From a virus (taxonomy: Duplodnaviria > Heunggongvirae > Uroviricota > Caudoviricetes), in the IMG/VR virus record IMGVR_UViG_3300029686_000225: a stretch of 48,664 bases of DNA. One strand, given 5' to 3'. The notes beneath the pieces are model-generated. The model searched no databases, was not told the origin of the DNA, and saw nothing but the letters and a program-made list of their open reading frames with translations. Positions 11,257-26,224 of the stretch are shown one piece after another; position 1 is the stretch's first letter, and each line of letters begins with the position of its first letter. A program made the translations under genes and the position numbers.

Positions 11257-11260
11257 GTGT

Positions 11261-11520: not shown

Positions 11521-11701
11521 CAATTTTTCGTATATATATACAAAACAGCGCGGGTTATGCGGGTTAGCGGGTTATCTTCGCGTGCTAAGTATTTTTACTC
11601 TTTAATATCAATGCGTTAAAAAACAACGTATTTAAATATCAGCCAGAATGTAACCCGCAAGACATTCAAAATAACCCGCAAACACCCCTCAAATAACCCG
11701 C
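11521..11701. repeat. iteron cluster (GCGGGTTA x3 direct, TAACCCGC x3 inverted) with adjacent (TA)n tract
   Basis: Direct copies at 11550, 11559, 11567; inverted at 11651, 11672, 11694; alternating TATATATATA at 11531-11545. Confidence 0.7.
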
Positions 11702-11782
11702 AAAAACATCCCTGAAAGTGGGTACCGGTAATACTGAAAATTTATTCCATTAAATGAGCATTGTCCTCTCTCATCCATTCCG

Positions 11783-13784: not shown

Positions 13785-14072
13785 GTTCTTTTTTCGCCCA
13801 ATTATTTTCAAAAAAATTTCCGTGCACAAAAATTTGAGGAGGCGGTCGGTGTCCGGCAGGGACGGTTTTGTCCTGAAAACCTCCCCCACCCCCTCTGACG
13901 GCCTCACCAGCGATTGCGAAAACATTCCATGACCTCGCGGTCACGGTCGGTTAATCGCTTCGCTGTGGTGCGTTCTGTGCGCCCTGTCCTGTTGGCTTTG
14001 TGCCCTGTCTCCTGTGTCTTCCATAAGTCACGCTGCCTTATCAGTCCACGTATCAGCCTGTTTTGCTCCTGT

Positions 14073-14513
14073 TCAGTCATCATCGCCATACATCCAGTCG
14101 TTACGGTGTGCCGCCCGTTCTTCCTGCTCGCGATACATACCCGCCTTACGGTTCGCTTTCGTGGCTGGATCTTCCCGTGTTGTCTTACGGTTATGGCACG
14201 TCTGGCACAATGCCTGGTGGTTCCACTCAGGCCAGAAGAGAACATCACCGCCGCCATTGATGGGAATGATGTGATCCACCACAAGAGCTGGCGTATAAAT
14301 CCCCTTAGCCAGACAACGCACGCATAACGGATTTTTGCTCAGGTACAGGGCGCGGTATTTGTCCCACTGTCGGGAATACCCGCGCGCGCGGCGGTGTCCC
14401 CGTCTGGCATCCTCTGCACGCCATGCAGCCCGCCTGTGATCTTCGCACTTGCCGGACTTCACGCGCTTATTACAGCCCGGCTCAGTGCATCGCCTTAATG
14501 GTTGCCACGGCAT
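14073..14513 (-). CDS. HNH endonuclease (packaging-associated)
   Basis: Cys-rich Zn motifs and HNH core (DHIIPINGGG ... CQTCHNRK); located upstream of terS. Confidence 0.85.
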   Translation of the reverse strand: MPWQPLRRCTEPGCNKRVKSGKCEDHRRAAWRAEDARRGHRRARGYSRQWDKYRALYLSKNPLCVRCLAKGIYTPALVVDHIIPINGGGDVLFWPEWNHQALCQTCHNRKTTREDPATKANRKAGMYREQEERAAHRNDWMYGDDD

Positions 14514-14812
14514 CAGTACACCCCTACATCACGATAAACCGACCAGAGCGCAGAAATAGCCATAGGCAGTTCAGACTGCTCCACAGGTGAAACCGCTTCC
14601 CTGTTCTCGTACAGGAAAGCGATGTACATCAGGCAACCAACACGTATTGCCGGGGTAAATTCCAGCCCGTCTTCAAAACGTTTCCCGATATGCTTCTGGC
14701 AGGCTTCCAGCGCCGCATCGGTATACATTTTCAGAAGTTCGCCTTCTCCGGAAAAGTCATCAAGGCGAAGATGTGCCCTGACTTCATCAGGTGTAATTTT
14801 TTCTTCACTCAT
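14513..14812 (-). CDS. gp6-like head-tail connector protein
   Basis: Starts MSEEKITPDEVRAHLRLDD, the gp6-like signature; GGTGA RBS. Confidence 0.65.
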   Translation of the reverse strand: MSEEKITPDEVRAHLRLDDFSGEGELLKMYTDAALEACQKHIGKRFEDGLEFTPAIRVGCLMYIAFLYENREAVSPVEQSELPMAISALWSVYRDVGVY

Positions 14813-16019
14813 CTTTTTCACCTTTAATTTCCACCGTCTGCTTCCATGCCTGGCTGAATTCGTCGCCACCTTCACGCGGCGGCATCCCCTCACGTTCGCG
14901 GGCTTCGTTCGGATTCATGATCCCGTTCTTAATCCCTTTCTCATACGTGGCGTAACGTTCGGTAGGGGTGGCGCGTAATAAATCGGCTGAATCAAACTCA
15001 ACCAGATAACGGGTACCAGGTACGGGAGAAGCCACCAGCAAAGCGGCCTTAATTTGCTGTTCGAAGTTCGCCAGCCATGGGCGCATTGTCATGGTCAGAA
15101 ACGCGCGGCTTGCCTCGCTGAAATTGCTGTAGGTGCTGTTGCTGTATTCCTGCAGAAAAATAGGCGATACGTTGAACATCCGGGCGATGTCTTCAATGGA
15201 GAAGCGACGGGAGGCCAGCCATTCCGCATCCTGGTTACTCATCCCCAGTTGCTTGTAATCCATGCCCCCTTCAAGGATTGGCGTTTTTCCGGCATTTTTC
15301 GCCCCCTTGTAGCGTTCCAGGGCGTCTAATGCCTGTTTACCTTTCACGCCGTCCAGCCATTCGCCTGACGTGATAATCCCTGCCGCCATCATGCCATCTT
15401 TCATAATGCTGGCTCCGTGACGCTGTTGAGCAAGGCCAAGCCCCAGCGCCTCACGGCAAATCGTGACGGGGGAACGTCCCAGAAAGCCATCATCCGAGGC
15501 ATAGCGGAGATGCAGGACTTCTTCCTGTAAATACGTGCGTACCGTTCCTGTATAGGGTTCGGTGATGGTATAGCGGTATTTGTGTGCGCCTGTGCGTTCC
15601 GGTACAACACACCCCGGCGCATAAGGATGAAGTGATTTTGGCTGACCGTCCCGCCCCCATTCAATAACCGCATAGGCGTTACCGTTCAGCAGGCAGTGAC
15701 GCATCATTGTGCGTTTAAACTGGTAAGGTGTCTGGCACGAATTAGGCTGCTCATTCAGCAGAATATCTACCGGATGACTGTCCAGCCATTCCCGCGCCTC
15801 CCTGCCCTTGTCATTACGTACCAGATACAGATAACACGGCATCGTGGCCACCGCCTCAGCGATGACGGAAACCGCGTTCATCACAGCAGGCAATGATTCA
15901 GCCGTCCCGGCAGAAACATATTCTCCGGATCCGGTATTCGGTACGCCGGACAGCGCCAGAAAATCATCAATGGACAGGTTACGCAGATCGCTTTTTTTAC
16001 GACTAAAAGGCCACCACAT
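14805..16019 (-). CDS. portal protein, HK97 family (satellite)
   Basis: About 404 aa with portal-family pattern; start directly after protease stop. Confidence 0.85.
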   Translation of the reverse strand: MWWPFSRKKSDLRNLSIDDFLALSGVPNTGSGEYVSAGTAESLPAVMNAVSVIAEAVATMPCYLYLVRNDKGREAREWLDSHPVDILLNEQPNSCQTPYQFKRTMMRHCLLNGNAYAVIEWGRDGQPKSLHPYAPGCVVPERTGAHKYRYTITEPYTGTVRTYLQEEVLHLRYASDDGFLGRSPVTICREALGLGLAQQRHGASIMKDGMMAAGIITSGEWLDGVKGKQALDALERYKGAKNAGKTPILEGGMDYKQLGMSNQDAEWLASRRFSIEDIARMFNVSPIFLQEYSNSTYSNFSEASRAFLTMTMRPWLANFEQQIKAALLVASPVPGTRYLVEFDSADLLRATPTERYATYEKGIKNGIMNPNEAREREGMPPREGGDEFSQAWKQTVEIKGEKDE

Positions 16020-16020
16020 A

Positions 16021-16581
16021 TCACAACCCCGCCAGTTCAGCCCAGCGATGACGATTATTTCCTGTCGGGCGTAATTCAGGGTGCTGTGCAAACAACGAAC
16101 GGTGGGCAATCTCCACGCCGGATTCGGGATAAGCAGGCATCGACGTTATCGTGATTTCACGGAGTTCTGCGGCGGTAACAGTGCGCAGATACGGTTTTTG
16201 CGCGATATTCCATTCTTCGCATAATGCGCGAAAGCCAAAGCTCATTCCTGTAATGTCGCCACGCTCCACCAGCGTAAGCACATCTTTTCCAAGCTGGGTA
16301 TCAGGCGGTGTCAGTTCAAAACGTAGCCCGGTGTTGTCCTCAGTCAGTACCAGTGTTCCGGATTTGGTGCGCCCCAGCAGTCGGGTATAGTCATGCTCAT
16401 ACAGGCAGCGCACATCATTACCCGCCGCCAGATAGTCAGCAAAAGCCCCCGGCGTGAACTGTTCGCGGAATTCGTCCCAGATAATTTCTGAAAGGCTGTT
16501 CCAGCGAACGGCATAACCCACCAGTTTTTTATCGCTGGCGGTCAGTTCAGATGTACGGATTTCAAAATCGGTATTTTTCAT
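16021..16581 (-). CDS. prohead protease, HK97 family (satellite)
   Basis: About 186 aa; GGAG RBS; motifs LGRTKSGTL and MSFGF typical of the prohead protease family. Confidence 0.8.
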   Translation of the reverse strand: MKNTDFEIRTSELTASDKKLVGYAVRWNSLSEIIWDEFREQFTPGAFADYLAAGNDVRCLYEHDYTRLLGRTKSGTLVLTEDNTGLRFELTPPDTQLGKDVLTLVERGDITGMSFGFRALCEEWNIAQKPYLRTVTAAELREITITSMPAYPESGVEIAHRSLFAQHPELRPTGNNRHRWAELAGL

Positions 16582-16630
16582 CGGTGTACTCCATAAAGCT
16601 GAAAAAGGAGGCCGAAGCCCCCTTTGCTCA

Positions 16631-17776
16631 TTACTTGCCAGCCTGAATTTCCAGAATCTTGATGGCGTTCGAATCCACCACACCACCGCCCAGATATTTC
16701 TGGGTATAGATGTTAATGAATCCGGGTTCGCTGAAATCCGGACGGGTTCGCGTACCGGTTTCATGGTCAACGATGAAATAACCGCGCTTAAAGTCACCTA
16801 CTGCAATCACACCGTCCGGCATAAATTCCAGATATTCAACCGGAAGCCCCAGCAGAGAATCAGGATCACCAGCCTGTAAACGATCGCGCCAGATGTAATC
16901 ACCAGTGGCATTTTTCAGTTTTTGTGCGGAGGCGGCTGTATTTGAGTTCATCACCCATACAGCTTTTTTGCGGTACTTATTGCGTAGCGTAAATTTCAGG
17001 TCAATCAGCATGTCGGCGCTGAGACTGCCAGTCACTTTTTTCGTCTGGAGCGTACCGAAAGGACGGGTTTTGTCGTTATCCGCAGTGCGCGGAAAAGCCA
17101 GGAAACCTTTAGCTTTTTTCTCGCCATCACCAGAAACCAGATCCGTTTCTTCGGTATCAACGAAAGTGTCGCCAATTTCAGAAGATAACCAGCTCATAAT
17201 ATCGACTTCGGAAAAATCGATAATTTCCTGAGTGGTTTTTGGGTAAGCGTAGATCGGATACAGGCGGATACTGACTTCATTCAGTTTTGGGGTTGCCGTC
17301 TGGTTACGTGTAGTGCCTTCTTCACCGTGTTCAACGACCGCGCCCCCGGCAGAAACCAGTTGCTTAAATTCATTGCTGTGAATGGTTTTAACGGTACAGA
17401 TTTTACGCATCACCGATTCATCAGAAAGCTGACGCATAATTTCTCTGTTCAGTTCCGGGATAACCGTATAACCACCATCAGCCGGGACACTGCCAGACAG
17501 GTTGCGGGTTTCCCCGGTCAGAATGTAAGAGCGCAGTTCGTCTTTGGTTATTTTCTCTTCGACGGAAACACCAGGCTGGTTACGTTCTTCATCAGCCACA
17601 GATTCGAGGCGGGAAATTTCTGTGTCGAGGGAATCGGCTTTTGCACGCAGTTCATCAAACTGTTTGCCCTCGTCATCGTTCAGGCTGCGGTTTTCACTGT
17701 CGGCTTTTTCCAGCAGGGATCGCATCTGGTTTTTCAGGGCGGTTTTTTGCTGGCGGAGTTCGATTAATTTCTTCAT
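16631..17776 (-). CDS. major capsid protein, HK97 family (satellite)
   Basis: 381 aa with N-terminal coiled coil and HK97-like core. Confidence 0.9.
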   Translation of the reverse strand: MKKLIELRQQKTALKNQMRSLLEKADSENRSLNDDEGKQFDELRAKADSLDTEISRLESVADEERNQPGVSVEEKITKDELRSYILTGETRNLSGSVPADGGYTVIPELNREIMRQLSDESVMRKICTVKTIHSNEFKQLVSAGGAVVEHGEEGTTRNQTATPKLNEVSIRLYPIYAYPKTTQEIIDFSEVDIMSWLSSEIGDTFVDTEETDLVSGDGEKKAKGFLAFPRTADNDKTRPFGTLQTKKVTGSLSADMLIDLKFTLRNKYRKKAVWVMNSNTAASAQKLKNATGDYIWRDRLQAGDPDSLLGLPVEYLEFMPDGVIAVGDFKRGYFIVDHETGTRTRPDFSEPGFINIYTQKYLGGGVVDSNAIKILEIQAGK

Positions 17777-18013
17777 GAAGGTTTTCTCGTATTGGTTAAG
17801 ATTCAGGACGTGAAACCAACACGGAGGGAGCGCCGCCCGACACTCTCGGCATCTCGCAGATCAACCCGGCATCGCGCAGGGGGTCAGGCGGCATTGTGGC
17901 GGCTCACGTCTGAGTGCCACACGCCAACATATACATAAAAATCAGTATGTAAACATCAGCCAGAATCACCGAACAACCTGGAACAACCACGAACAAATAA
18001 TTTACAAAACCTG

Positions 18014-18040
18014 AAAAAAAGACCCGGAAAAATCCGGGCC
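18014..18040 (-). terminator. intrinsic terminator
   Basis: Hairpin CCCGGAAAAATCCGGG flanked by A-run and T-run; minus strand reads hairpin then TCTTTTTTTC. Confidence 0.5.
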
Positions 18041-18049
18041 TTTATCGCT

Positions 18050-18298
18050 TTATTGTTTCACTGGATCCCGCATTCTGCGTCTTATTTTCCACAGATATTC
18101 GATCATCGCTTCCACCTGCTCACGGTTGGTTGCGAAAATTTCCCCGGTCAGTGAGCTACGCAGAAAATCATGATGATCCACAACAAACAACGCATCGGAA
18201 GAAAGCAGACGGCGATATTTTTTTGCTGTCGTGGTTTCCAGATCATCAAAACCATGAAATTTTTTATGTTGCTGGACTTCTTCAAATGTCACTGGCAT
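18050..18298 (-). CDS. hypothetical protein
   Basis: 82-aa ORF with AAGGGGG RBS; no recognisable motif. Confidence 0.5.
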   Translation of the reverse strand: MPVTFEEVQQHKKFHGFDDLETTTAKKYRRLLSSDALFVVDHHDFLRSSLTGEIFATNREQVEAMIEYLWKIRRRMRDPVKQ

Positions 18299-18831
18299 GT
18301 ATCCCCCTTTACTGCCCGGCGCTGGCGCTTGTGCTTCTCATTCAGCGCCATCAGCCGCGTTTCTGCCTCCTGCTGTTCCTGTGGTGTCACCTCGCCGCAC
18401 GGCTGGCCTTTCAGGTCGTAACGTGCACCACCAGCCATTAAGGCGCGGTAATAGCGCGGAGACTGCGCATAGGATGCCAGCGTCGCACGTAATGCCCCCG
18501 GCCCGAATGTCAGCCCCCTGGCGGCGATATCCTGCATCAGGTCGTCGCATATCCCCACCTTAAGCGGCTTCGGTGCTTCCCGGCTGAATAAGTCAGGCCA
18601 CATCTCTGTGAGGCGGTTAACGCGCCTGCGGTTTTTGCGCTGGCGTTTGGTCATATGCCGCCACGGTGTCGCCTCTGTGGGCTTCTGTTTGCGGCTCTGC
18701 TGTGCGTTCTGATTGCCGGGCATCACTTTATGCGCCGATGTGGCTTTATCCTGCTGCTGTGCCGTCTGCGTTGTTTTCTGCGGCGTGCCGTAAATGCCTT
18801 TCGGTTTTCGGTTAATGGTCAGCGTTGTCAT
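18289..18831 (-). CDS. ProQ/FinO-family RNA-binding protein
   Basis: C-terminal region PLKVGICDDLMQD...LRATLASYAQSPRYYRALMAGGARYDLKGQPCGEV resembles the ProQ/FinO domain; basic N-terminus. Confidence 0.65.
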   Translation of the reverse strand: MTTLTINRKPKGIYGTPQKTTQTAQQQDKATSAHKVMPGNQNAQQSRKQKPTEATPWRHMTKRQRKNRRRVNRLTEMWPDLFSREAPKPLKVGICDDLMQDIAARGLTFGPGALRATLASYAQSPRYYRALMAGGARYDLKGQPCGEVTPQEQQEAETRLMALNEKHKRQRRAVKGDTCQ

Positions 18832-18867
18832 GCTTTCCCCTGTAATAACTCTGTTCGCTGTTGTGAA

Positions 18868-19293
18868 TTAAAACGGTATGTTATCCCCGTACGGGTCATC
18901 GTGCTGGCTTGTCTGTTGTTTTGCCCTGTTCAGTGCGTCAGTGGCCTGGCCCTGCTGGCCTTTTTTGCCGCCCGGTCGCGCCGTTCGCGCACTGATTACG
19001 CTGTCTGCGATAACCTGCCAGCCCTGTCGCGTTTCCCCGTTCTGGCCTGTCCACTGGCTTACCTGCATGTTACCCGCCACGCTCACCAGTTCGCCTTTGC
19101 GGTGTTTTGCCAGTGCGTCGGCCTGTCTGCCAAACGCCAGGACAGATAACCACATCGTCGCCGTTCCGTCATCTGCCTGGCTGCACGGCAGGGGAACCGC
19201 CATACTCGCCATAGCCATTTGTGTCCCCTTGCTGGTGGTCTTTAACTGCGGGTCAGCCACCAGCCGCCCGTAAGCCGCTATCTGTGCTGTCAT
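18868..19293 (-). CDS. ssb: single-stranded DNA-binding protein
   Basis: OB-fold pattern and acidic C-terminal tail ...DDPYGDNIPF. Confidence 0.8.
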   Translation of the reverse strand: MTAQIAAYGRLVADPQLKTTSKGTQMAMASMAVPLPCSQADDGTATMWLSVLAFGRQADALAKHRKGELVSVAGNMQVSQWTGQNGETRQGWQVIADSVISARTARPGGKKGQQGQATDALNRAKQQTSQHDDPYGDNIPF

Positions 19294-19357
19294 GCTGTCT
19301 GTTCTCCGGTTTTAACGTTGATTGTTACGCTTGTTTACACCCTTACGGTGAAATTCT

Positions 19358-19480
19358 GCGGGTTATAATCGCACTTTTGCGGGTTATAACTGCCGTTTTG
19401 CGGGTTACGTGCGGGTTATTGATTTCCTTTTTATTCATACAGTTAATGCACTTATGCACAGGATAACCCGCATAACCCGC
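19358..19480. repeat. candidate replication origin iterons (GCGGGTTA x4 direct, TAACCCGC x2 inverted)
   Basis: Direct copies at 19358, 19379, 19400, 19411 (21, 21, 11 bp spacing); inverted at 19464, 19473; immediately 3' of the primase-helicase gene. Confidence 0.7.
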
Positions 19481-19503
19481 AACTTTTCACCTCACACAGG
19501 GGG

Positions 19504-21627
19504 TTAATCTTCTGCCTCAGGCTGGAACATCAGCACGTAAAAAACATGCTGCTTCCCCCCAATTTTGCCGAGCGCCTTTTTCTTGTAACGGCGATCGTTA
19601 CCCGCTTCCAGCATTCCGGCAGCACTCAACGCGCGGGCAAAGTGAGACGGATTAAATCCCTGTGCTATCTCACCCTCAAATACATGCGGGAACGTGTAAA
19701 AACGGAACTCGTCATCTTCGTTTCTGATACACCCCTTTCTGTATCCGGCAAGCTCTTTAATCGGTAAATCACGCTCGTCGGTGTTGGGCCACGGAAGGTA
19801 TCTGCTGAATCCGAACGACGCTAAAAAAGCCTCTGCCTGTTCAACCATCTGTTTAAACTCCCTGTTACCCGTGCCGAACTCCTTCACCCAGGCATTAAAA
19901 TTATGCTGAATGGCATCGCGGCACGCCTGAACATCCCAACCAGTAATATGGACGGAAAGCACCAGCGCCGACTCCAGCATGGCGAATCGTTCCCCCACAC
20001 GGTGAACCTGTTCGCCGTAACTCTCCGGTATCAGGTTGCGCCACCGTTCACGGCATGCCCTTACCGTATCCTTTGCCTCCTGCTGGTGGTCTGCCAGCCA
20101 TTTAACCCATTCACGCCCCGCCGCCCCGTGATTTTCTGTCCAGGCATCCTTTAACGCGTCTGCGTGTGCCTTTCCGGTGCTGTATTCGTGAAACTGCGTG
20201 GCTTTTTCCATTGGCACGTTAAGCAGGCGGACAAGCTGCCCCGCCTTGACTTTTATCCCCTCCGTTTTGAGGAATGTCTCAACGTCCATTTCTCCGGTGC
20301 TGATTGCCACCGTGCGCCAGTGTTTGATCTCCCTGTTGCCGCCGTCCTTCGCCCCCTGTAATTTCCCCGAACCGTTAAACAGCGTATAAGCCGACGTGGA
20401 CACTTCCCGCGCGTTTCCGGCCTGGCCTATTTCATCCAGGGGTAAAAGCCCGTCATTGTGTGCCTCTGCTTCGTTGGCGATACCTAACGCTGTGCCGTAC
20501 CAGGTCAGCCGCTGCGCGTCCGGCTCTCCCCATAAACTTGATGCGATGTTCTGCGTTGTGGTCTTACCTGCCGATGACTGTTCGAAAAGATGTACCCCGA
20601 AGCCGTCAGCACCCACCAGCCCGATTAATGGTGCGGATAGCGATACCGCCACACCCAGCATCATGGACGGATTACCACCAGCCAGTCGCGCCACACTGTC
20701 GCGCCAGCCCTCCGCCGTTCCTGCCACGGAATAACCATTAACGGCAGCCGTTTTTCCGGTAAACAGGACTGGCTTTTCGCAATCACCAATGACCGAACCG
20801 TCCGGCATGATGTACGCGCCAAAATGCCAGCCCGTTGTTGTGCTTAACTGCCATTCCTCATGGTTTCCGCTTAACTGCATCCAGTCAGCCAGGATAGCCC
20901 TGTATTTACCGTTGGTTGTCACGTTCAGTCCGTGGTCTTTCAGCAGCCGCCAGCCGTCACGGTCGCCAATGCCACCGCACGGAACCGCCATCGTGATGAC
21001 TTCATGGTTTGCTGGCTTTTTCCAGCGCATCACGCGGTAATGCTCTTTGCCGATTGTCCCCGTTCCCAGTAGCTCAAGCGGGGAGCATAACCACGTTTCA
21101 GGCCGGATAATTTCGCCTGACTGCTTATCCACTTTTGGCGTTACCCAGAAAACACCATCGGCGCGGCTTTCAACGCGGGGCTTTAATTCATCATCACCCG
21201 GGCTTTCTGTGATTTTTTTCTTTAAGGGCAACACCAGACTTTCCCCGCGCTCGTATTCGTCTTTGAGGCGAGGCAACTGGTCGGATAAATCCGCCGGGCT
21301 GGTGTCAGTTATCCCCGCGTATTCGTATACGGTCTTCACGCCAGCCACAGCCAGCAACGTGACGATCTGTGTGAGGCTACGTTCAGTGATGTGCCCTGCG
21401 CGGTAAATACGCACACACTGACGGCTATCATCAATAATTTGATAACCGGTAATATCTTTCAGGTGTTCATCTGACAGAACGACAGGCGGCACATTGTCGG
21501 CGGCAATATGCTTACCTGCCCATTCCTGCCACTCTTTCGCATGGCTCCACGCATCACTACCCGCAAAGATGATAACCTCCGTCATTTTGTCGGCTGGCTG
21601 GTGCTTTAAGTTTGGTGCGCGCTTCAT
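19504..21627 (-). CDS. replication initiator, putative primase/helicase
   Basis: 707 aa with Walker A-like SSAGKTT; sits next to the iteron cluster as PICI/P4 replication genes do. Confidence 0.7.
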   Translation of the reverse strand: MKRAPNLKHQPADKMTEVIIFAGSDAWSHAKEWQEWAGKHIAADNVPPVVLSDEHLKDITGYQIIDDSRQCVRIYRAGHITERSLTQIVTLLAVAGVKTVYEYAGITDTSPADLSDQLPRLKDEYERGESLVLPLKKKITESPGDDELKPRVESRADGVFWVTPKVDKQSGEIIRPETWLCSPLELLGTGTIGKEHYRVMRWKKPANHEVITMAVPCGGIGDRDGWRLLKDHGLNVTTNGKYRAILADWMQLSGNHEEWQLSTTTGWHFGAYIMPDGSVIGDCEKPVLFTGKTAAVNGYSVAGTAEGWRDSVARLAGGNPSMMLGVAVSLSAPLIGLVGADGFGVHLFEQSSAGKTTTQNIASSLWGEPDAQRLTWYGTALGIANEAEAHNDGLLPLDEIGQAGNAREVSTSAYTLFNGSGKLQGAKDGGNREIKHWRTVAISTGEMDVETFLKTEGIKVKAGQLVRLLNVPMEKATQFHEYSTGKAHADALKDAWTENHGAAGREWVKWLADHQQEAKDTVRACRERWRNLIPESYGEQVHRVGERFAMLESALVLSVHITGWDVQACRDAIQHNFNAWVKEFGTGNREFKQMVEQAEAFLASFGFSRYLPWPNTDERDLPIKELAGYRKGCIRNEDDEFRFYTFPHVFEGEIAQGFNPSHFARALSAAGMLEAGNDRRYKKKALGKIGGKQHVFYVLMFQPEAED

Positions 21628-21938
21628 TTTGCCTTTCCCCGTTCACGAATAATTTCACGTACTGCCTTAATGCGTTCCATTCCTGTAACGCGCATGATTC
21701 TGTCGATGTCGCTTAATTCTGCTGGTGGTGCTTTGCTTACCAGGGTGAACTCCCTGTCAAAGCGCATATGTGACGACACGCAGGGATGCGCATAACCTTC
21801 GCGGATATAGGTCACACGAAAATCATCGACGGTTTTAATCGTTATCGTGCTGCCGTATTTATCCCGGAAAATATCACCGGGGCGGATTTCAGGCCGAGCG
21901 TGACCGCTGGCAGTAAAGCCAGAATTTTTCTTTTTCAT
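21624..21938 (-). CDS. hypothetical protein
   Basis: 104-aa ORF; stop overlaps primase start (ATGA). Confidence 0.5.
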   Translation of the reverse strand: MKKKNSGFTASGHARPEIRPGDIFRDKYGSTITIKTVDDFRVTYIREGYAHPCVSSHMRFDREFTLVSKAPPAELSDIDRIMRVTGMERIKAVREIIRERGKAK

Positions 21939-21944
21939 GTTTTT

Positions 21945-22163
21945 TTACTCCAGAGGCAGCTTTTTAGCGGCGAGCTCAATATCAGATGTCAGAGAAACCT
22001 GTGTATTTGCCAGGTCTAACAACAAAGAAATAAGAATTTCTTCTCTGCTATCGGATTTATCGGTGCTAAGGCTGTTCATCCACATATTGACGACTTCCCT
22101 GATTTTTTTCGCAGAGTGCAGGGCTTCAAATGCCAGGTCTTCAATATCATGTTTATTTCGCAT
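21945..22163 (-). CDS. hypothetical protein
   Basis: ATG at 22163 with G-rich RBS; 72 aa. Confidence 0.4.
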   Translation of the reverse strand: MRNKHDIEDLAFEALHSAKKIREVVNMWMNSLSTDKSDSREEILISLLLDLANTQVSLTSDIELAAKKLPLE

Positions 22164-22398
22164 AATCGCCCCCGCCATTTTCACAATCAGCAATCAGGAT
22201 GGCTTTAGCCTCATTCAGCGCCATATCAGCGGTAAGCTGTGCGTAAGCCAGCGAATGCGGGATTATCGCCCCTGTATATTCCGTCTCTCTGGTAATGTGT
22301 TTTTCTGCGGTTGCTGCCGTGCATGAAATATCAATCAGCGCGTGCATTAGCGTTTTGATGGCTTCGGCGGCTGCGTCCGGACGGGTGTTATTGCACAT
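22153..22398 (-). CDS. hypothetical protein
   Basis: 81-aa ORF with AGGGGG RBS. Confidence 0.45.
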   Translation of the reverse strand: MCNNTRPDAAAEAIKTLMHALIDISCTAATAEKHITRETEYTGAIIPHSLAYAQLTADMALNEAKAILIADCENGGGDYAK

Positions 22399-22594
22399 GG
22401 CGTACCCCCTGACGAATACGGGCGGCGAATACCATCACGCAACCAGCCGGGGATTGCTGGCGTGCTTCCTGTTCGCTGGTGGCCTCAATGGTAATCACGC
22501 GCGGTTGTGCCGTGCTCAGGGCGATAAAACGCCAGATGTATTTATTCAGGTTGTGCGAGTCCCGCCCTTGCGGGTGTGTGGTATGATTTCTCAT
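22388..22594 (-). CDS. hypothetical small protein (first gene of leftward operon)
   Basis: 68 aa; ATG at 22594 with GAGGT RBS; only the 3' 207 nt of the 363-aa track ORF is taken as real. Confidence 0.4.
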   Translation of the reverse strand: MRNHTTHPQGRDSHNLNKYIWRFIALSTAQPRVITIEATSEQEARQQSPAGCVMVFAARIRQGVRHVQ

Positions 22595-22691
22595 AGCTAC
22601 CTCGATACTTCTGCTATCGTTGGTGGTTAGAAGCCCTGCGAGTGGTAACGACACTTGCGGGGCTTTGCATTTATGCGCCTTGATAATTTTA

Positions 22692-22727
22692 AGGTGTGGC
22701 CCACTATATGTTTTAGGTGTGGCCCAC
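22692..22727. promoter_or_regulatory. two 13-bp direct repeats AGGTGTGGCCCAC in a divergent promoter region (candidate operator)
   Basis: Repeats at 22692-22704 and 22715-22727, 23 bp apart, followed by TATACT and the RHH gene RBS. Confidence 0.45.
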
Positions 22728-22793
22728 GTCAAGAGTTTTATTTGTGCTTTTTCTGTGTATACTGTCCCCCACCAATCCACCAGAGGAATAGAA

Positions 22794-22973
22794 ATGGCAA
22801 CGGGTACAACAAACGCAAAATCACAAGCTCTAAAGGCTCGTGTACCACACGAAATAGTAAACGCCATGGAATCAGTGAAAGAATCAGGCGAAAGCACATC
22901 ACAATTCATCATTACGTCAATGCAAGGCGAGATCAAACGCCGCCAGCGTCGCAAGGCCAAAGAGCAGGAGTAA
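22794..22973 (+). CDS. putative ribbon-helix-helix-type regulator
   Basis: 59-aa ORF with AGGA RBS; only plus-strand gene in the element. Confidence 0.45.
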   Translation: MATGTTNAKSQALKARVPHEIVNAMESVKESGESTSQFIITSMQGEIKRRQRRKAKEQE

Positions 22974-23310
22974 CCATCACCAGCGCCGTGGTGTGAGGAA
23001 TCACGGCGGCAACCATAGGAGTAAAAGATGCCAAAACTTAAAAATTGTGCACTCTGTGCGATTGTTCTAATTGTCGCCGCCTTTATCTTAAAATCATGCT
23101 TCGAGAAAAAGAATCTTTGCGGAAGCAATGAAGGCGATATATTACGGCGTGCTTGCGATATAGAGTTGAAAAAAAGTTGAGCATAACCTAACCGCGACAA
23201 TGCCGTAGTTCCTGTAATTACAGAACAGCTCAGGATTTGCCCACCAGCCGCAAATGTGGCATTGTTGGTTATGCTCATGCGTTGGGGATAACGTGTAGCT
23301 TGTGTCAAGG

Positions 23311-23339
23311 GGCCACCGTAGCGGGTGGCCTTTGTTTTG
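23311..23339 (+). terminator. intrinsic terminator (plus strand)
   Basis: GGCCACC-GTAGCG-GGTGGCC then TTTGTTTTG. Confidence 0.5.
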
Positions 23340-23376
23340 CCTGTTATCCTGCAACTATGGTCATTTCGACCACGGT

Positions 23377-23465
23377 TGATATAATCCCCCCGCACAGATT
23401 CATTTTTTGCGCAGTAGGTTAATTGTTCGCAAGGGCGCTCCGGTAACGGGGCGCTTTTTGTTTTT
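23377..23465 (+). ncRNA. candidate small RNA (extended -10 promoter to intrinsic terminator)
   Basis: TGATATAAT at 23377-23385; hairpin GCGCTCCGGTAACGGGGCGC plus T-run at 23435-23465; no ORF. Confidence 0.3.
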
Positions 23466-23623
23466 ACCCACCAGCACAATAAAAATCTTCATTTTCCATT
23501 TTTGTAAAATTTCATGCTTTCCGGACGACTGGTAATATGTCATTTTTTAGCAGAAGATTTTGCCTTGCTGGTGGGTAGCTTCCCGGTCAACACGATGTAC
23601 CGTATAATCAACACCGCGTGTGG

Positions 23624-24217
23624 TTACTGAATACGCTCACCAAAGTAAAACTCAGGCTGGTATTCACGTATCAGCCTTTTTTCTTCTTCCTCCAGTTCAC
23701 GCTTTTTGCGCTTACATGCCTGTAGCTCCCTCCCCTTCTCGCTGGCACTTATCTGGTATTGCTCTTTGCGGCGGGAAAAATCCTGTAATGCGCCCCACGG
23801 GATACCATAAGCCCCCGTTTTTCTGATACCCGGTATCACATTTCTGAATACCCAATTACTGAAACGATGGGCGAACGTGCCAGGATTAACAGCTTTGCGA
23901 CTTCTGGCGATCAACTTGTAAAAACCTGATTCTGATACAACATTCCAACTTCTGGCACCACCACGCTTACCTGAATGACCCTCGGTTAAAGCTAGGGTCA
24001 TTACCTCATCGCTATCCAGAACTGAAACAGCATCGGTAACGTTGCTAATTTCCAGCGCCGCACACACATCAGCGCCAACAAACCACGGATCGCCGTTCAG
24101 ATACACCACGCGAACGTTCACACTATCAAAGCGCAGAACGACCAGATCGCGAATATCACAGAATTTTTTCACATGACGTGCGTCACCCTTGCCCGTCGCG
24201 GCAATATTTTTATTCAT
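23624..24217 (-). CDS. Bro-N domain protein (antirepressor-like)
   Basis: N-terminal pattern VRVVYLNGDPWFVGADVCAALEI typical of Bro-N/KilA-N; GAGGT RBS. Confidence 0.65.
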   Translation of the reverse strand: MNKNIAATGKGDARHVKKFCDIRDLVVLRFDSVNVRVVYLNGDPWFVGADVCAALEISNVTDAVSVLDSDEVMTLALTEGHSGKRGGARSWNVVSESGFYKLIARSRKAVNPGTFAHRFSNWVFRNVIPGIRKTGAYGIPWGALQDFSRRKEQYQISASEKGRELQACKRKKRELEEEEKRLIREYQPEFYFGERIQ

Positions 24218-24232
24218 CACTTTCTACCTCAC

Positions 24233-24264
24233 ATACAAAAAACCCCGCATTGCGTGGTGCGGGG
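24233..24264 (-). terminator. intrinsic terminator after alpA
   Basis: Minus strand CCCCGCACCACGCAATGCGGGG then TTTTTTGT. Confidence 0.55.
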
Positions 24265-24274
24265 TTGTCGGTAA

Positions 24275-24553
24275 TTACTTATTGGCGTTTTTGTATGGGC
24301 TGTTTACTTCCTTTACTCCTGGCGGATGCATAACCCACCAGAGCACATCAGAGAGCAACCAGGAAACAGACACTTTCCCTAAATGAGCACGAGCAGGAAA
24401 TGCTCCCTCCTGTTCAAGTACCCAACGTCTGCTTCTTGAAAGCCCGGTACGATTGGCACACTCATGTTCGCGTATACGGCGATCATACGGTTCGCCATGT
24501 TCTTTCAGAATCTGAATGCGTTCTTCGGGTGTAGGATAAATAAATTTTTGCAT
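24275..24553 (-). CDS. alpA: AlpA-family transcriptional regulator
   Basis: HTH_17-like segment TGLSRSRRWVLEQEGAFPARAHLGKVSVSW; GGTGA RBS. Confidence 0.75.
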   Translation of the reverse strand: MQKFIYPTPEERIQILKEHGEPYDRRIREHECANRTGLSRSRRWVLEQEGAFPARAHLGKVSVSWLLSDVLWWVMHPPGVKEVNSPYKNANK

Positions 24554-24566
24554 AAAAATATCACCT

Positions 24567-24592
24567 ATAAAAAAACCCGCCAAAAGACGGGT
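24567..24592 (-). terminator. intrinsic terminator
   Basis: Minus strand AACCCGTCTTTTGGCGGGTT then TTTTTTAT. Confidence 0.45.
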
Positions 24593-24616
24593 TGATTATA
24601 TCTCATTTAATTTAGT

Positions 24617-24838
24617 TCAGGGTTTCCATTCACCCTTTACCCATTCCAGCACCTCAGATAAGCGCCAGACTTTTGTTTGTGGGCCAATACATATTTTCCG
24701 TGGAAATTTTCCTTCCTTTTCAAGTAATGCTCTGTGTCTCCTGCCAAGAGCTGTTAACCATGCACATTCATCTTCCTTAATCATCCTGTCGATTGTTTTA
24801 TCATTTTCAAGTTCTTCACGCGTAACTATTTCAATCAT
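24617..24838 (-). CDS. alpA: AlpA-family transcriptional regulator (second copy)
   Basis: HTH_17-like segment AWLTALGRRHRALLEKEGKFPRKICIGPQTKVWRLSEV; GGTGA RBS. Confidence 0.7.
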   Translation of the reverse strand: MIEIVTREELENDKTIDRMIKEDECAWLTALGRRHRALLEKEGKFPRKICIGPQTKVWRLSEVLEWVKGEWKP

Positions 24839-26039
24839 TACCGTCACCACTAATTAGCTTATTCAGATAGTCGTACCACCAGTTCATAGCTTCTTTTTTT
24901 CTGTCCATATACTGACTTCTGTTATAAACCCCGGCAACACCGCCTAATGTGTGCCCAAGCAACTGTTCAACCACATTATGTTCAAAACCATGATCACTTA
25001 GCTTTGTGGCAAACACTCTTCGCATATCATGCGCCGTCCATTTTTCCGAGTGTTTCATCCTTTTCCATGTCTTACCGATAGTTACGCTTGCCGTACACTG
25101 ACGCATATCAAACCCAATCACATTTTCTTTGTTACCTGTTATTTTTTTTAACGTAACTAACCAGTTAAACATGCCATCAGGAATCGGTCTGATTATTTCC
25201 CTGCCATTTTTGCTATGATCAGCGGGAACGCGCCATAATTTCTTATCAAAATCCCACTCTACCCAGGACGACAGTAATACTTCTGACAGTCGACAACCAA
25301 AAACTACCAGGAAACGTAAAATAATTCGGTTTTCATATGATAATTCGTGATTGTCATAATCAGTATTAATACTTCGCCATAAATCTCTGATTTCATCATC
25401 TGTTAAAACCCTGCTTCTTCGCGCAGACTTTTTTCCCACATCACAGACCTCAAGATCATCAATTTCATGACTAATCGCGTATTTTCTTACCCTACAAAAT
25501 TTAAGCGCCTGTTTTGATATACGCAACAAAGCTCCGGCCTGTACAGGTGCTACTTTTTTTATTTTGTCAAAACACTTGATCCACATAGATATAGAGCAAT
25601 CACTAAGTGGTACATGACCAATCACCGGATAAATATGTTTACCAAAGCACTGCCTGATATGTTCTGCTCCCCTACGCTTATCCATTGCATAATTATCAAG
25701 CCAGTATTCAAGTGCCTCACGAACGGTAACAGGTTGCAAGGTGGCTTCCCGTTCAATTTTTATCTGAATCCGTGGATCTCTGCCCTCCGCAAGCCAGGTT
25801 CGACACTGATCGCGCATCTCTCTCGCTGATTTGAGACTCAGATCAGGATATTTTCCAAGTGTCAGCCAGATGGGCGCGGTTCCCCTTCCCGCCAGTCTGT
25901 AAAAGAAAACAAAACTAACACATCCGTATTTACTGACCCGTACCGAAAGCCCGTTACCATCAGCGATGGTTTCCTGCCTCTCACTCCTGCGCCCAAGCAG
26001 GGAACGAAGTTTTTTATCGCTCAGTTTGTTTAGCGCCAT
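24831..26039 (-). CDS. int: tyrosine integrase (P4/PICI-type) of the inserted element
   Basis: About 402 aa; C-terminal catalytic region with R...H..R and HDMRR...LLGH...Y; adjacent to the element junction. Confidence 0.85.
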   Translation of the reverse strand: MALNKLSDKKLRSLLGRRSERQETIADGNGLSVRVSKYGCVSFVFFYRLAGRGTAPIWLTLGKYPDLSLKSAREMRDQCRTWLAEGRDPRIQIKIEREATLQPVTVREALEYWLDNYAMDKRRGAEHIRQCFGKHIYPVIGHVPLSDCSISMWIKCFDKIKKVAPVQAGALLRISKQALKFCRVRKYAISHEIDDLEVCDVGKKSARRSRVLTDDEIRDLWRSINTDYDNHELSYENRIILRFLVVFGCRLSEVLLSSWVEWDFDKKLWRVPADHSKNGREIIRPIPDGMFNWLVTLKKITGNKENVIGFDMRQCTASVTIGKTWKRMKHSEKWTAHDMRRVFATKLSDHGFEHNVVEQLLGHTLGGVAGVYNRSQYMDRKKEAMNWWYDYLNKLISGDGND

Positions 26040-26210
26040 GTGATTTATAACCCGTTTTTGCAATACACAGTGCAATACACAAATGATGAAAACAGCCAGA
26101 ACCTTCCAGAAAAAACAAAAACGACGAACAAGAAAAAATCTTTTTCTTTCATTTGGTTACTAAAAAAATCAGGACAGGTCGCACTGTTGTTACGGCGTGA
26201 TGTTACTTTC

Positions 26211-26224
26211 TTGGTAAAAAAATT
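26211..26224. repeat. right junction repeat of inserted element (TTGGTAAAAAAATT)
   Basis: Partner of 11261-11274; lies in terL codons F-T-K. Confidence 0.7.

What the first reader, a model, noticed from the sequence alone, without database searches (positions are those of the whole stretch)
23377..23465. Candidate small RNA defined by an extended -10 promoter and a terminator
TGATATAAT at 23377-23385 is followed about 50 nt later by hairpin GCGCTCCGGTAACGGGGCGC and a T-run, with no coding potential between. It would give a transcript of roughly 70 nt, antisense to nothing annotated.
Basis: seen in the sequence. Interest (0 to 1): 0.45.

Follow-up and report, generated by a model that had tools for sequence, protein, structure and literature searches.

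The report
Conserved antisense small RNA in PICI satellites
The promoter-plus-terminator pair is very likely a real gene for a roughly 71-nt small RNA, carried by hundreds of E. coli phage-satellite islands (including the model island EcCICFT073). It lies antisense to the start of a long, stop-free leader reading frame that leads into the island's replication genes, so it is a candidate for the unknown brake on these satellites.

Summary
TGATATAAT lies at 23377-23385, the hairpin GCGCTCCGGTAACGGGGCGC at 23435-23454 and a T-run at 23455-23465, all on the + strand.

In a single sequence the promoter match is no better than chance. Comparison makes the case. The unit from about -45 to the end of the T-run is one recombination module. 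It occurs once per island in 444 of 5426 complete E. coli genomes, including EcCICFT073 of CFT073. The extended -10 is kept in 52 of 53 distinct copies. A second RNA type has different sigma-70 promoters at the same place. Every terminator version still folds.

The window is a helper-embedded, capsid-encoding PICI inside a prophage terL gene. No Rfam family matches, and no paper in the searched library describes this RNA.

"Antisense to nothing" is wrong. The RNA lies opposite the 5' part of a 290-800-codon open frame on the - strand. That frame runs from the alpA/Bro gene, across an antisense ylcI repressor gene, into icd. It is kept open in 75/84 and 35/35 islands, although its amino acids are not conserved.

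My best reading (inferred) is a sar/C4/CI-like cis-antisense gate on AlpA-driven read-through into the replication genes. No expression data were available.

The parts
23358..23385 (+). sRNA promoter: weak -35 (TGGTCA, 23358-23363), 16-nt spacer, and the extended -10 TGATATAAT (23377-23385).
   Evidence: Scan. TGnTATAAT is kept in 52 of 53 distinct type-1 copies; L014 has TGATATAAC. The -35 is not conserved. Homology in L016/L019 begins only about 29 nt upstream of the -10, so the minimal promoter belongs to the module. Type-2 islands carry TTCACT-17-TATAAT or TTCACA-17-TAAAAT at the equivalent place.
23392..23465 (+). Predicted sRNA transcript of 71-74 nt. Its 5' part is largely unstructured and U-rich.
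   Evidence: The covariance model R1 matches 23392-23462 at 100.9 bits, with exactly one copy per island locus. Fold z-score is -3.8. No Rfam family matches at E<=1.
23409..23432 (+). Candidate single-stranded recognition (seed) region, GCGCAGUAGGUUAAUUGUUCGCAA.
   Evidence: This is the part shared between RNA types. BLAST hits to type-2 islands cover only window 23409-23465. Type 2 differs at a few positions (GCAGUAGGCUAUUCGUUC, GCUGUAGGUAAUUCGUUC). It is unpaired in the MFE and centroid folds.
23431..23465 (+). Intrinsic terminator of the sRNA: core stem 23435-23454, loop GUAA, then UUUUUGUUUUU.
   Evidence: All 20 distinct versions fold at -14.4 to -21.7 kcal/mol. This includes a re-registered stem variant, GCGGCUCC/GGGGCCGC. 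Homology between islands stops right after the T-run, where four alternative flanks begin.
23237..23341 (+). Upstream half of the conserved 230-nt block. It ends in the + strand terminator T1 (hairpin 23308-23333 plus T-run), the likely 3' end of the ylcI transcript.
   Evidence: Two stem versions occur, GGCCACC/GGTGGCC and GGCGACC/GGTCGCC, which is a compensatory C-G to G-C exchange. This half is absent from L016/L019, which still keep the sRNA module.
22388..23479 (-). Long stop-free leader frame (364 codons) opposite the sRNA gene, T1, the small ORF, ylcI and the icd promoter. It is in frame with icd (22594-22388).
   Evidence: This frame has 0 stops in 364 codons; the other two - frames have 24 and 22. 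The longest open run in 2000 shuffles was 230 codons. The frame is at least 200 codons long in 75 of 84 complete type-1 loci and in 35 of 35 type-2 loci, where it spans 291-606 codons and always ends in Icd. Amino acids are not conserved: variable columns by codon position are 32/36/28, with 16 synonymous against 77 non-synonymous variants and no stops. Only residues 314-357 match a protein family, phage_ICD_like.
22794..22973 (+). ylcI/ynfO-family gene for a small protein with a ribbon-helix-helix look. It lies on the same strand as the sRNA and is divergent from icd.
   Evidence: NCBIfam YlcI_YnfO_N, E=5e-19. PGAP annotation. Present in 71 of 88 loci that hold the sRNA.
22683..22732 (-). Internal promoter of the icd-to-primase operon (TTGACG-18-TATAGT, 22732-22703), overlapped by two direct repeats of GTGGGCCACACCT, a candidate operator.
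   Evidence: Other islands have a different promoter/operator sequence together with a different YlcI allele (sequence seen). Transcripts that start here carry no sRNA target.
23624..24220 (-). BRO-N/antirepressor-like gene, the last gene of the 'Bro zone', upstream of the sRNA target on the - strand.
   Evidence: Pfam Bro-N, 2e-16. PHROG anti-repressor, 1e-77.
24275..24850 (-). Two alpA-family regulator genes (24850-24617 and 24583-24275), each followed by a - strand intrinsic terminator (24593-24574 and 24266-24241).
   Evidence: Pfam Phage_AlpA. Terminator scan.
24831..26075 (-). Tyrosine integrase of the island. The island (about 11.26-26.2 kb) splits a prophage terL gene.
   Evidence: which show the terL halves on either side. 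This is the helper-embedded PICI class described in PMC10111431.

Best explanation
This is a real gene for a 71-74 nt small RNA. It belongs to the regulatory (Bro/immunity) zone of Gram-negative phage-inducible chromosomal islands.

The RNA is made on the + strand from a self-sufficient extended -10 promoter and ends at its own intrinsic terminator. That strand opposes the island's main direction of transcription.

I propose that it acts in cis as an antisense RNA on - strand transcripts. These start at the AlpA-activated promoter and read out of the alpA/Bro genes. Such transcripts carry a long leader reading frame. It begins next to the sRNA's 3' end, runs over the antisense ylcI gene and the internal icd promoter, and joins icd in frame.

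The proposed steps are:
1. The sRNA pairs with about the first 25 codons of this frame.
2. Pairing blocks or uncouples translation of the frame, and/or draws RNase III cleavage.
3. The untranslated transcript is then exposed to Rho-dependent termination and decay, so stray read-through does not reach icd and the replication genes.
4. When a helper phage switches alpA on, sense transcripts outnumber the sRNA. Convergent transcription may also silence its promoter.
5. The leader is then translated and the replication and packaging genes are expressed.

Shown here: the gene anatomy, its conservation as a module, the complementary long open frame and the selection that keeps it open.

Shown in the literature: AlpA-dependent expression of the ORF downstream of alpA in EcCICFT073.

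Inferred: transcription of the sRNA, the pairing outcome, and the involvement of Rho or RNase III.

My confidence that a real sRNA is transcribed here is about 0.8. The confidence figure given below is for the whole statement, including the gate mechanism.
For: Module conservation:
- The module is found in 444 of 5426 complete E. coli genomes, always on chromosomes, with up to 6 copies per genome.
- There is exactly one copy per island locus by covariance model.
- Its borders are sharp, at about -45 and at the end of the T-run, with four alternative downstream flanks and recombinants.
- The extended -10 is kept in 52 of 53 distinct copies.
- Type-2 islands have unrelated but good sigma-70 promoters at the same place.
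- Every terminator version folds.

Linkage: icd is present in 83 of 88 loci and ylcI in 71 of 88. Meanwhile integrases are about 25% and primases about 50% identical between islands.

Opposite strand:
- The - frame has 0 stops in 364 codons, against 22-24 in the other - frames.
- It is open in 75/84 type-1 loci and 35/35 type-2 loci.
- 61 of the 75 long type-1 frames, and all 35 type-2 frames, end in the Icd C-terminus.
- Substitutions show no third-position bias: 16 synonymous against 77 non-synonymous, with no stops. The frame is kept open but the protein is not conserved.

Start-codon geometry:
- In class A an SD (GAGG) and an ATG lie about 20 nt after the alpA-like stop codon. The sRNA duplex would begin at about +9 of the ORF.
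- In type 2 the ATG overlaps the antA stop, as ATGTGTAA.

Other support:
- Broken frames are commoner where there is no proper start: 6 of 26 in class C against 3 of 53 elsewhere.
- A C-rich, G-poor stretch (C/G up to 2.07) lies just downstream of the target on the - strand.
- In EcCICFT073, which holds a full copy, a reporter fused to the ORF after alpA depends on AlpA, AlpA overexpression triggers runaway replication, and no repressor is known (PMC6092414).
- P4 offers a precedent. Its immunity RNA lies inside the eta ORF, which is coupled to the alpA homologue, and translation of eta prevents termination (PMC10111431).
Against: - I could access no RNA-seq, northern or TSS data, so transcription is unproven.
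- The formal covariation test on the terminator was inconclusive: 93% of cells paired, no double-sided changes in the model-fitted alignment, and no excess over shuffles.
- The geometry is not uniform. In class B (including EcCICFT073) the target lies about 85 codons into a Bro-N-like ORF. In type 2 the duplex would start at about +24. Simple occlusion of the ribosome site cannot be the general mechanism.
- In the window's own class C the only start is a TTG with a poor SD.
- Two - strand terminators lie upstream, after the alpA genes, and may limit read-through.
- In L016/L019 the long frame restarts downstream and does not cover the sRNA gene.
- A cis-antisense pair needs no sequence conservation, yet seed and terminator are the parts shared between RNA types. 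This hints at an extra constraint, such as a trans target or a protein partner.
- Rho and RNase III involvement is pure inference.
Confidence: 0.45

Rival explanations
1. A trans-acting sRNA, dependent on Hfq or ProQ. The conserved unpaired region GCGCAGUAGGUUAAUUGUUC pairs with mRNAs of the host, the helper phage or competing satellites. The antisense position would then be incidental.
For: The anatomy is typical of such sRNAs: an internal U-rich tract, an unstructured seed, and a GC hairpin with a long U tail. Seed and terminator are the parts shared between RNA types, while the promoter and 5' end are replaced. Cis pairing does not explain that conservation. The island also encodes a FinO/ProQ-family protein. 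A Vibrio satellite sRNA that acts across satellite and phage genomes has been reported (10.1101/2022.04.08.487710, listed).
Against: No outstanding complementary site was found in the 48.6-kb window outside the antisense locus. None stood out in phage lambda either: the best hit was -30.6 kcal/mol against -25.9 to -28.7 for five shuffled seeds. The FinO/ProQ gene accompanies the sRNA in only 11 of 88 loci. The E. coli core genome could not be scanned with these tools.
Confidence: 0.2
2. An OOP-like antisense RNA whose real target is the 3' end of the convergent alpA/Bro mRNA. Pairing just downstream of the stop codon draws RNase III and 3'-exonucleases, which lowers AlpA or antirepressor levels. 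The long leader frame would play no role.
For: The sRNA terminator abuts the stop codon of the upstream - strand gene: about 20-30 nt away in class A and about 14 nt from antA in L088. No - strand terminator follows BRO-N, so its mRNA must extend into the sRNA-complementary region. A second TATAAT-plus-terminator pair overlaps the BRO-N 3' end in the same style.
Against: This does not explain why a 290-800-codon frame is kept open from exactly this point into icd. In the window the RNA lies 160 nt from the BRO-N stop. The two readings are compatible and could both hold.
Confidence: 0.15
3. There is no RNA gene. The 230-nt block is conserved because it is coding sequence of a - strand Bro-network/Icd-like protein, and the promoter and terminator matches are by-products.
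For: The - strand frame is open. PGAP calls it a protein in several genomes. In class B it is fused to a Bro-N-like N-terminus. The promoter match on its own is at chance level.
Against: Substitutions show no codon-position bias and are mostly non-synonymous. Amino-acid identity is lower than nucleotide identity, about 75% against 86% for the window versus L004 (one search read by eye; BLAST figure). No protein family covers this part. Both hairpins are followed by T-runs on the + strand only, and they keep pairing through changes. Homology ends exactly at the T-run. Type-2 islands replace the promoter with another promoter rather than conserving the peptide.
Confidence: 0.07
4. A transcriptional insulator. 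Two tandem + strand terminators (T1 and T2) stop ylcI-side transcription from running antisense into alpA and int. The RNA made between them has no function of its own.
For: Two conserved + strand terminators lie 120 nt apart at a convergent junction.
Against: An almost invariant extended -10 sits between the terminators. L016/L019 keep the promoter, RNA and T2 but have lost T1. Type-2 islands also place a promoter before T2.
Confidence: 0.05
5. The antitoxin RNA of a type I toxin-antitoxin pair. It would control a small hydrophobic peptide encoded opposite (47-aa ORF, 23543-23400, - strand) or nearby (50-aa ORF, 23028-23180, + strand).
For: Both small ORFs have hydrophobic cores. Fully overlapping antisense RNAs are typical of some type I systems.
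Against: The 47-aa ORF exists only with the window's class-C flank and is interrupted by stops in other classes. The 50-aa ORF is on the same strand as the sRNA, has no family match and occurs in 6 of 88 loci. There is no Rfam Sok or Sib match.
Confidence: 0.03

Closest known systems
sar RNA of phage P22 (immI region; Rfam RF00262)
   Same: Both are antisense RNAs of about 70 nt, made from their own promoter on the strand opposite an operon that includes an antirepressor (Ant/Bro-N type) gene and small ribbon-helix-helix repressors. sar pairs with the translation-start region of the downstream ORF. (The properties of sar are from my own knowledge of the P22 literature.)
   Different: There is no sequence or structure match (cmscan at E<=1). 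The target here is a 290-800-codon non-conserved leader frame that ends in icd, not ant itself. The host element is a satellite, not a phage.
C4 RNA of P1/P7 with icd-ant (Rfam RF01695), and the related P4 CI RNA / IsrK (RF01394)
   Same: Both are immunity RNAs placed upstream of icd. In P1, blocking translation of the upstream ORF aborts transcription of downstream genes. In P4, the RNA lies inside the eta ORF, which is coupled to the alpA homologue, and translation of eta prevents termination (PMC10111431). Here too there are long open frames over the RNA gene, and allelic seed variants suggest specificity types.
   Different: C4 and CI are cut out of the sense leader transcript and pair with short sites on that same transcript. 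This RNA is on the opposite strand, has its own promoter and terminator, and is fully complementary to its target. The Rfam models do not match it. They do find genuine isrK and C4 copies elsewhere in sister islands, so it is a separate module.
OOP RNA of phage lambda
   Same: Both are short RNAs with a terminator, made from a constitutive promoter and convergent with a regulatory gene, ending close to or over that gene's 3' end. (From my own knowledge.)
   Different: OOP overlaps the cII coding 3' end and acts through RNase III. Here the overlap with the upstream gene is absent (the window) or lies only in the untranslated spacer, and the RNA covers the beginning of the next reading frame.
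sRNA of the Vibrio cholerae satellite PLE (10.1101/2022.04.08.487710)
   Same: Both are small RNAs encoded by a phage satellite and proposed to regulate satellite gene expression (abstract seen).
   Different: The element and host are unrelated. The PLE sRNA is reported to act in trans on both genomes. No homology was tested or is expected.

Membership tests
sar RNA (Rfam RF00262) | Match to the family covariance model | tested here: not met
   cmscan of 22300-24400 at E<=1, and of the whole window at gathering score, gave no sar hit.
sar RNA (Rfam RF00262) | Opposite-strand RNA with its own promoter, complementary to the start region of the next ORF in an Ant-type immunity region | tested here: met
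   The anatomy is shown, and the Bro-N/Ant-type neighbour. This supports 'works like', not membership.
C4 / CI / IsrK immunity RNAs (RF01695, RF01394) | Match to the covariance models | tested here: not met
   No hit in the window. The same models score 63-80 bits on sister islands L005, L010, L066 and L089 at a different position, so the search has power.
C4 / CI / IsrK immunity RNAs (RF01695, RF01394) | Encoded on the sense strand and processed from the leader of the operon it controls | tested here: not met
   The RNA is on the strand opposite the operon and has its own -10 and terminator.
Intrinsically terminated bacterial sRNA gene (general class) | Promoter, non-coding body and Rho-independent terminator conserved together as a unit | tested here: met
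Intrinsically terminated bacterial sRNA gene (general class) | A discrete transcript is detected | not testable with these tools
   No transcriptome data were accessible. No paper in the library reports it.
Intrinsically terminated bacterial sRNA gene (general class) | Statistical covariation supports the structure | tested here: inconclusive
   93% of cells are paired, but there is no excess over shuffles, and the second stem version falls out of register in the model-fitted alignment. Individual folds are all stable.
Hfq-dependent trans-acting sRNA | Terminator with a long U tail plus an upstream U-rich site | tested here: met
   UUUUUGUUUUU tail and AUUUUUUG tract.
Hfq-dependent trans-acting sRNA | Identifiable trans targets, or Hfq binding | tested here: inconclusive
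   No outstanding site in the window, the island or lambda. The host genome and protein binding could not be tested.
Type I antitoxin RNA | A conserved small toxic-peptide ORF overlapped by or adjacent to the RNA | tested here: not met
   The candidate peptides are not conserved with the RNA and have no family match.
Gram-negative PICI, helper-embedded (context of the RNA) | int, alpA and primase in one direction, a Bro zone, captured late genes, and insertion in a prophage late gene | tested here: met
   The annotation of the 99.9% identical record shows these genes and the terL halves on both sides. The definition comes from PMC10111431.

The most novel reading that the evidence does not exclude
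The antisense sRNA and the long, translated but non-conserved leader frame form the missing negative control of Gram-negative PICIs. They would act as an RNA-based gate that keeps the island silent and sets the threshold at which helper-induced AlpA transcription breaks through to the replication and packaging genes. The allelic seed types would act as immunity or specificity groups among the several satellites that can share one cell. The requirement that the frame stay open across an antisense repressor gene and join icd in frame would then be a new case of selection for translatability without selection for the protein.
Probability: 0.3. Interest if true: 0.8.

Novelty: new variant of a known kind. 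Interest (0 to 1): 0.55.

Why it matters
Gram-negative PICIs are widespread phage satellites that move virulence and defence genes. AlpA is known as their activator, but the founding study states that no global repressor is known (PMC6092414).

A conserved, unannotated antisense RNA sits directly after alpA, opposite a frame that evolution keeps open for hundreds of codons into icd. This gives a concrete hypothesis for how these islands stay silent and how induction becomes switch-like. It can be tested directly because the model island EcCICFT073 carries the element.

There are practical consequences as well:
- Genome pipelines currently annotate the opposite strand inconsistently, as Icd-like, BRO-N pseudogene or hypothetical.
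- Rfam has no model for this RNA.
- A covariance model built here finds exactly one copy per island.

Tried and rejected
- **Rfam.** Searches of the window at gathering score and of the locus at E<=1 gave only weak terminator-shaped hits to unrelated Gram-positive sRNAs.
- **Literature.** A sequence-string search and keyword searches (PICI + sRNA, AlpA, Icd, antisense; Esr41; YlcI) found no description of this RNA. The Pas sRNAs of EPEC were considered and set aside: PasB lies in a phage structural operon and the other Pas sRNAs in other lambdoid prophage contexts.
- **Species scans.** A scan of species-representative genomes with the seed pattern found nothing. A scan with the terminator alone mostly returned unrelated bacteria, which shows that the 23-nt hairpin is a generic terminator and not a family marker. 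Only Escherichia ruysiae was a true relative.
- **Trans-target scans.** Duplex-energy scans of the window, the island, a type-2 island and lambda gave nothing above the shuffled-seed background.
- **FinO/ProQ as a dedicated partner.** Rejected on co-occurrence, 11 of 88 loci.
- **Hok-like reading of the 50-aa ORF.** Not supported by any profile.
- **A + strand promoter at 23511-23538.** Its -10 is the most variable spot of that flank, so I rejected it.
- **A CI/seqA-like role for the three CCCACCAGC/GCTGGTGGG repeats.** Considered, but they are Chi sites in a Chi-rich window, and two of the three belong only to the window's flank class.
- **MAFFT/RNAalifold consensus of the RNA.** Uninformative, because the two terminator versions are out of register.

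Full report
**1. The observation.**
- The extended -10, TGATATAAT, lies at 23377-23385. The scan pairs it with a weak -35, TGGTCA, at 23358-23363.
- The hairpin GCGCTCCGGTAACGGGGCGC lies at 23435-23454.
- The T-run TTTTTGTTTTT lies at 23455-23465.

A start 7 nt after the -10 (G23392) gives an RNA of 71-74 nt.

In the single sequence the promoter match is worth little. The 4-kb region has 4 promoter-like sites against 5.9 +/- 2.7 in shuffles. Terminator-like sites are enriched, 11 against 4.5 +/- 2.2. The 74-nt RNA folds at -25.1 kcal/mol against -15.7 +/- 2.5 for shuffles (z = -3.8). Rfam has nothing for it, either at gathering score on the window or at E<=1 on the locus.

**2. Where it lies.**
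The window is E. coli DNA, 99.9% identical over the locus to strain OkiPb01701. The finding sits in a 15-kb phage satellite whose genes are almost all on the - strand. In order, these are:
- the integrase (26075-24831);
- two alpA-family regulators;
- a BRO-N/antirepressor gene (24220-23624);
- an Icd-like gene (22594-22388);
- DUF4222 and a DUF927 primase (21627-19504);
- SSB and a FinO/ProQ-like gene;
- then capsid, protease, portal, TerS and TerL.

The island splits the terL gene of a lambdoid prophage. This is the "helper-embedded PICI" class of PMC10111431. That paper describes a Bro zone that encodes Bro-N network proteins and immunity RNAs, which its authors detected with the Rfam C4 and isrK models.

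Between BRO-N and icd, three features lie on the + strand:
- a ylcI/ynfO-family gene (22794-22973);
- a 50-aa ORF (23028-23180);
- a conserved 230-nt block (23237-23466).

**3. Comparative evidence for a gene.**
A 701-nt query matched 634 of 5426 complete E. coli genomes, and the shared part is exactly 23237-23466. The 124-nt promoter-to-terminator stretch alone is in 444 genomes. All copies are chromosomal, with up to six per genome.

I compared seven BLAST-derived loci and 80 IMG/VR loci. The block has two halves:
- a 3' end with terminator T1 (23308-23333), probably the end of the ylcI transcript;
- the sRNA unit.

Four points support a gene.
- TGnTATAAT is kept in 52 of 53 distinct copies, while the -35 is not conserved.
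- Homology between islands stops right after the T-run, where four unrelated flanks begin.
- In L016/L019 homology starts only about 29 nt before the -10. So promoter, RNA and terminator move as one recombination unit.
- A covariance model finds exactly one copy per island locus and one in the window (23392-23462, 100.9 bits).

A second RNA type occurs in O104:H4, ABU 83972, E. ruysiae and 32 IMG/VR loci. It shares only the seed and terminator with type 1 (BLAST coverage 23409-23465). It has different, good sigma-70 promoters at the same place: TTCACT-17-TATAAT or TTCACA-17-TAAAAT.

All 20 distinct terminator versions fold, at -14.4 to -21.7 kcal/mol. This includes a stem of different sequence, GCGGCUCC/GGGGCCGC. 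T1 shows a C-G to G-C exchange.

There are two caveats. The formal covariation count on the model-fitted alignment was not better than shuffles. The IMG/VR sample was drawn with a pattern inside the seed, so seed invariance in that sample means nothing. Only the BLAST-derived comparisons speak to it.

**4.
The RNA is not antisense to nothing. One - strand frame is open from 23479 to the icd stop at 22388. It has 0 stops in 364 codons, against 24 and 22 in the other two - frames. The longest open run in 2000 shuffles was 230 codons. The frame passes over the sRNA gene, T1, the antisense 50-aa ORF, the antisense ylcI gene and the icd promoter, and it joins icd in frame.

This is not peculiar to the window.
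- In type-1 islands the frame is at least 200 codons long in 75 of 84 complete loci. 61 of those frames contain Icd in frame.
- In type-2 islands it is 291-606 codons long and ends in Icd in 35 of 35 loci, although the DNA in between differs.
- The rare 1-nt indel variants are exactly the ones with broken frames.

The amino-acid sequence is not conserved.
- Variable columns fall evenly on codon positions, 32/36/28.
- Distinct codon variants are 16 synonymous against 77 non-synonymous, with no stops.
- Only the last 45 residues (Icd) match any protein family.

So the frame is selected to stay translatable, not to encode a particular protein. PGAP annotates it variously as Icd-like, BRO-N pseudogene or hypothetical.

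**5. Where the frame starts.**
- Class A: an SD (GAGG) and an ATG lie about 20 nt after the stop of the alpA-like gene. The sRNA duplex would begin at about +9 of the ORF.
- Type 2: the ATG overlaps the antA stop (ATGTGTAA), and the duplex would begin at about +24.
- Class B, which includes EcCICFT073: the frame is fused to an 85-residue Bro-N-like N-terminus.
- Class C, the window's own class: only a TTG with a poor SD is available (23479). Broken frames are commoner in this class, 6 of 26 against 3 of 53 elsewhere.

**6. Mechanism.**
In EcCICFT073, AlpA activates its own promoter. A reporter fused to the ORF after alpA depends on AlpA. AlpA overexpression causes runaway replication, and no repressor is known (PMC6092414). 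That island carries a complete copy of the RNA gene.

Transcripts from the internal icd promoter lack the sRNA target. That promoter (22732-22703) is overlapped by two direct repeats that look like an operator. Only read-through from the alpA/Bro side carries the target.

I therefore propose a cis-antisense gate.
- The constitutive sRNA pairs with the 5' part of the leader frame.
- Pairing uncouples translation, or draws RNase III cleavage.
- The untranslated RNA is then exposed to Rho. A C-rich, G-poor stretch lies at 23347-23244 on the - strand.
- Strong AlpA-driven transcription titrates the sRNA and may occlude its convergent promoter.

This is the logic of three known systems. P22 sar/ant and P1 c4-icd-ant are cited from my own knowledge. 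P4 CI inside eta is summarised in PMC10111431. In P4, translation of eta, coupled to the alpA homologue, prevents termination. All steps after the anatomy are inference.

**7. Rivals.**
- A trans-acting Hfq/ProQ-type sRNA remains possible. The U-rich tract, the long U tail and the conservation of the seed between types all fit. However, scans of the window, the island, a type-2 island and lambda gave nothing above background, and the FinO/ProQ gene is present in only 11 of 88 loci.
- An OOP-like action on the alpA/Bro mRNA 3' end is compatible with the anatomy and not exclusive.
- A protein-coding explanation for the block is contradicted by the substitution pattern and by strand-specific T-runs.
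- A pure insulator reading is contradicted by the conserved promoter.
- A type I antitoxin reading fails because no peptide ORF is conserved with the RNA.

**8. Relation to known families.**
The RNA works like sar, C4 and CI, but it is not a member of any of them. The covariance models do not match it. They do detect true isrK and C4 copies on the sense strand, before a second icd, in sister islands L005, L010, L066 and L089. So this is a separate, additional module. Unlike C4 and CI, it has its own promoter and terminator on the opposite strand.

Within the reach of the tools the family looks restricted to Escherichia: E. coli, and E. ruysiae for type 2.

**9. Verdict.**
The small-RNA interpretation is supported by comparison but remains without expression data. 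The claim of having no antisense partner is wrong.

The RNA is a new, unannotated family of a familiar class, set in an unusual arrangement: a long frame kept open without protein conservation, overlapping an antisense repressor gene, in frame with icd. It offers a testable candidate for the unknown negative control of Gram-negative PICIs.

I put the probability that it is a real transcribed sRNA at about 0.8, and the probability that the specific gate mechanism is right at about 0.45.

Noticed in passing
window 22388-23479 (- strand); also L088, L102, L104-L139: A 290-800-codon frame is kept free of stop codons across an antisense ylcI gene, two + strand terminators and the icd promoter. It usually joins icd in frame, and its amino-acid sequence is not conserved. 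PGAP annotates it inconsistently.
   Followed up: yes
window ~11260-26200; terL halves 10531-11256 and 26045-27238: The satellite is inserted in, and co-oriented with, the large-terminase gene of a lambdoid prophage. It carries its own TerS, TerL, portal, protease and capsid genes, so it is a helper-embedded, capsid-forming PICI.
   Followed up: partly
window 23241-23248, 23468-23475 (- strand), 23567-23574 (+ strand); whole window: Chi (GCTGGTGG) occurs 31 times in 48.6 kb, against 1.8 expected from shuffles. Three copies lie within 340 nt, at the borders of the conserved sRNA block. Mosaic junctions between islands fall at these sites, so Chi-stimulated recombination may shape the module borders.
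   Followed up: partly
window 22683-22793: This is a divergent control region between ylcI (+) and icd (-). The icd promoter TTGACG-18-TATAGT (22732-22703) is overlapped by two direct repeats of GTGGGCCACACCT, each holding the near-palindrome GTGG-N-CCAC. Other islands pair a different repeat with a different YlcI allele, which suggests YlcI is the operator-binding repressor.
   Followed up: partly
window 23603-23677 (+ strand): A second possible antisense RNA. A perfect TATAAT (23603-23608) is followed by a terminator hairpin and T-run (23654-23677) that lies inside the last codons of BRO-N, giving an OOP-like overlap of about 65 nt. It is invariant among the closely related class-C islands, which is not informative because the region is coding.
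   Followed up: partly
window 23028-23180 (+ strand): A 50-aa ORF with an N-terminal hydrophobic segment and several cysteines (MPKLKNCALCAIVLIVAAFILKSC...). It matches no Pfam, NCBIfam or PHROG family, is not annotated in the sister record, and occurs in only 6 of 88 related loci.
   Followed up: partly
window 18289-18831 (- strand): The island encodes a FinO/ProQ-family RNA-binding protein next to SSB. It accompanies the sRNA in only 11 of 88 loci.
   Followed up: partly
window 24574-24593 and 24241-24266 (- strand): Each of the two alpA paralogues is followed by its own intrinsic terminator. Read-through into BRO-N and beyond must therefore pass two terminators, which hints at further attenuation or antitermination control.
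   Followed up: no
L005 1921-2008; L010 9391-9576; L066 3877-4065; L089 2009-2194 (- strand of each locus); L088 5971-6038; L105 5690-5757: Some sister islands also carry Rfam isrK plus C4 RNAs on the sense strand, inside an extended 'Icd-like' ORF before a second icd copy. Others carry the int-alpA RNA motif. The window has none of these.
   Followed up: partly
L091-L101, L103: The exact 23-nt terminator GGCGCTCCGGnAACGGGGCGCTTT recurs after unrelated genes in Alphaproteobacteria, Acidobacteria, Bacteroidota, Firmicutes and other MAGs. Either it is a convergent, near-optimal terminator hairpin, or some of these contigs need checking.
   Followed up: no
L016 ~3840-4010 and L019: In two islands the T1 half of the block is replaced by an unrelated sequence with three ACGAAAAACT repeats. 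The sRNA module is kept, and a new 464-codon open frame restarts just downstream and still ends in Icd.
   Followed up: partly
window 31842-31995 (- strand): The helper prophage carries tandem tRNA-Met(CAT) and tRNA-Lys(TTT) genes. The near-identical reference prophage has a different set of four tRNAs at that place.
   Followed up: no
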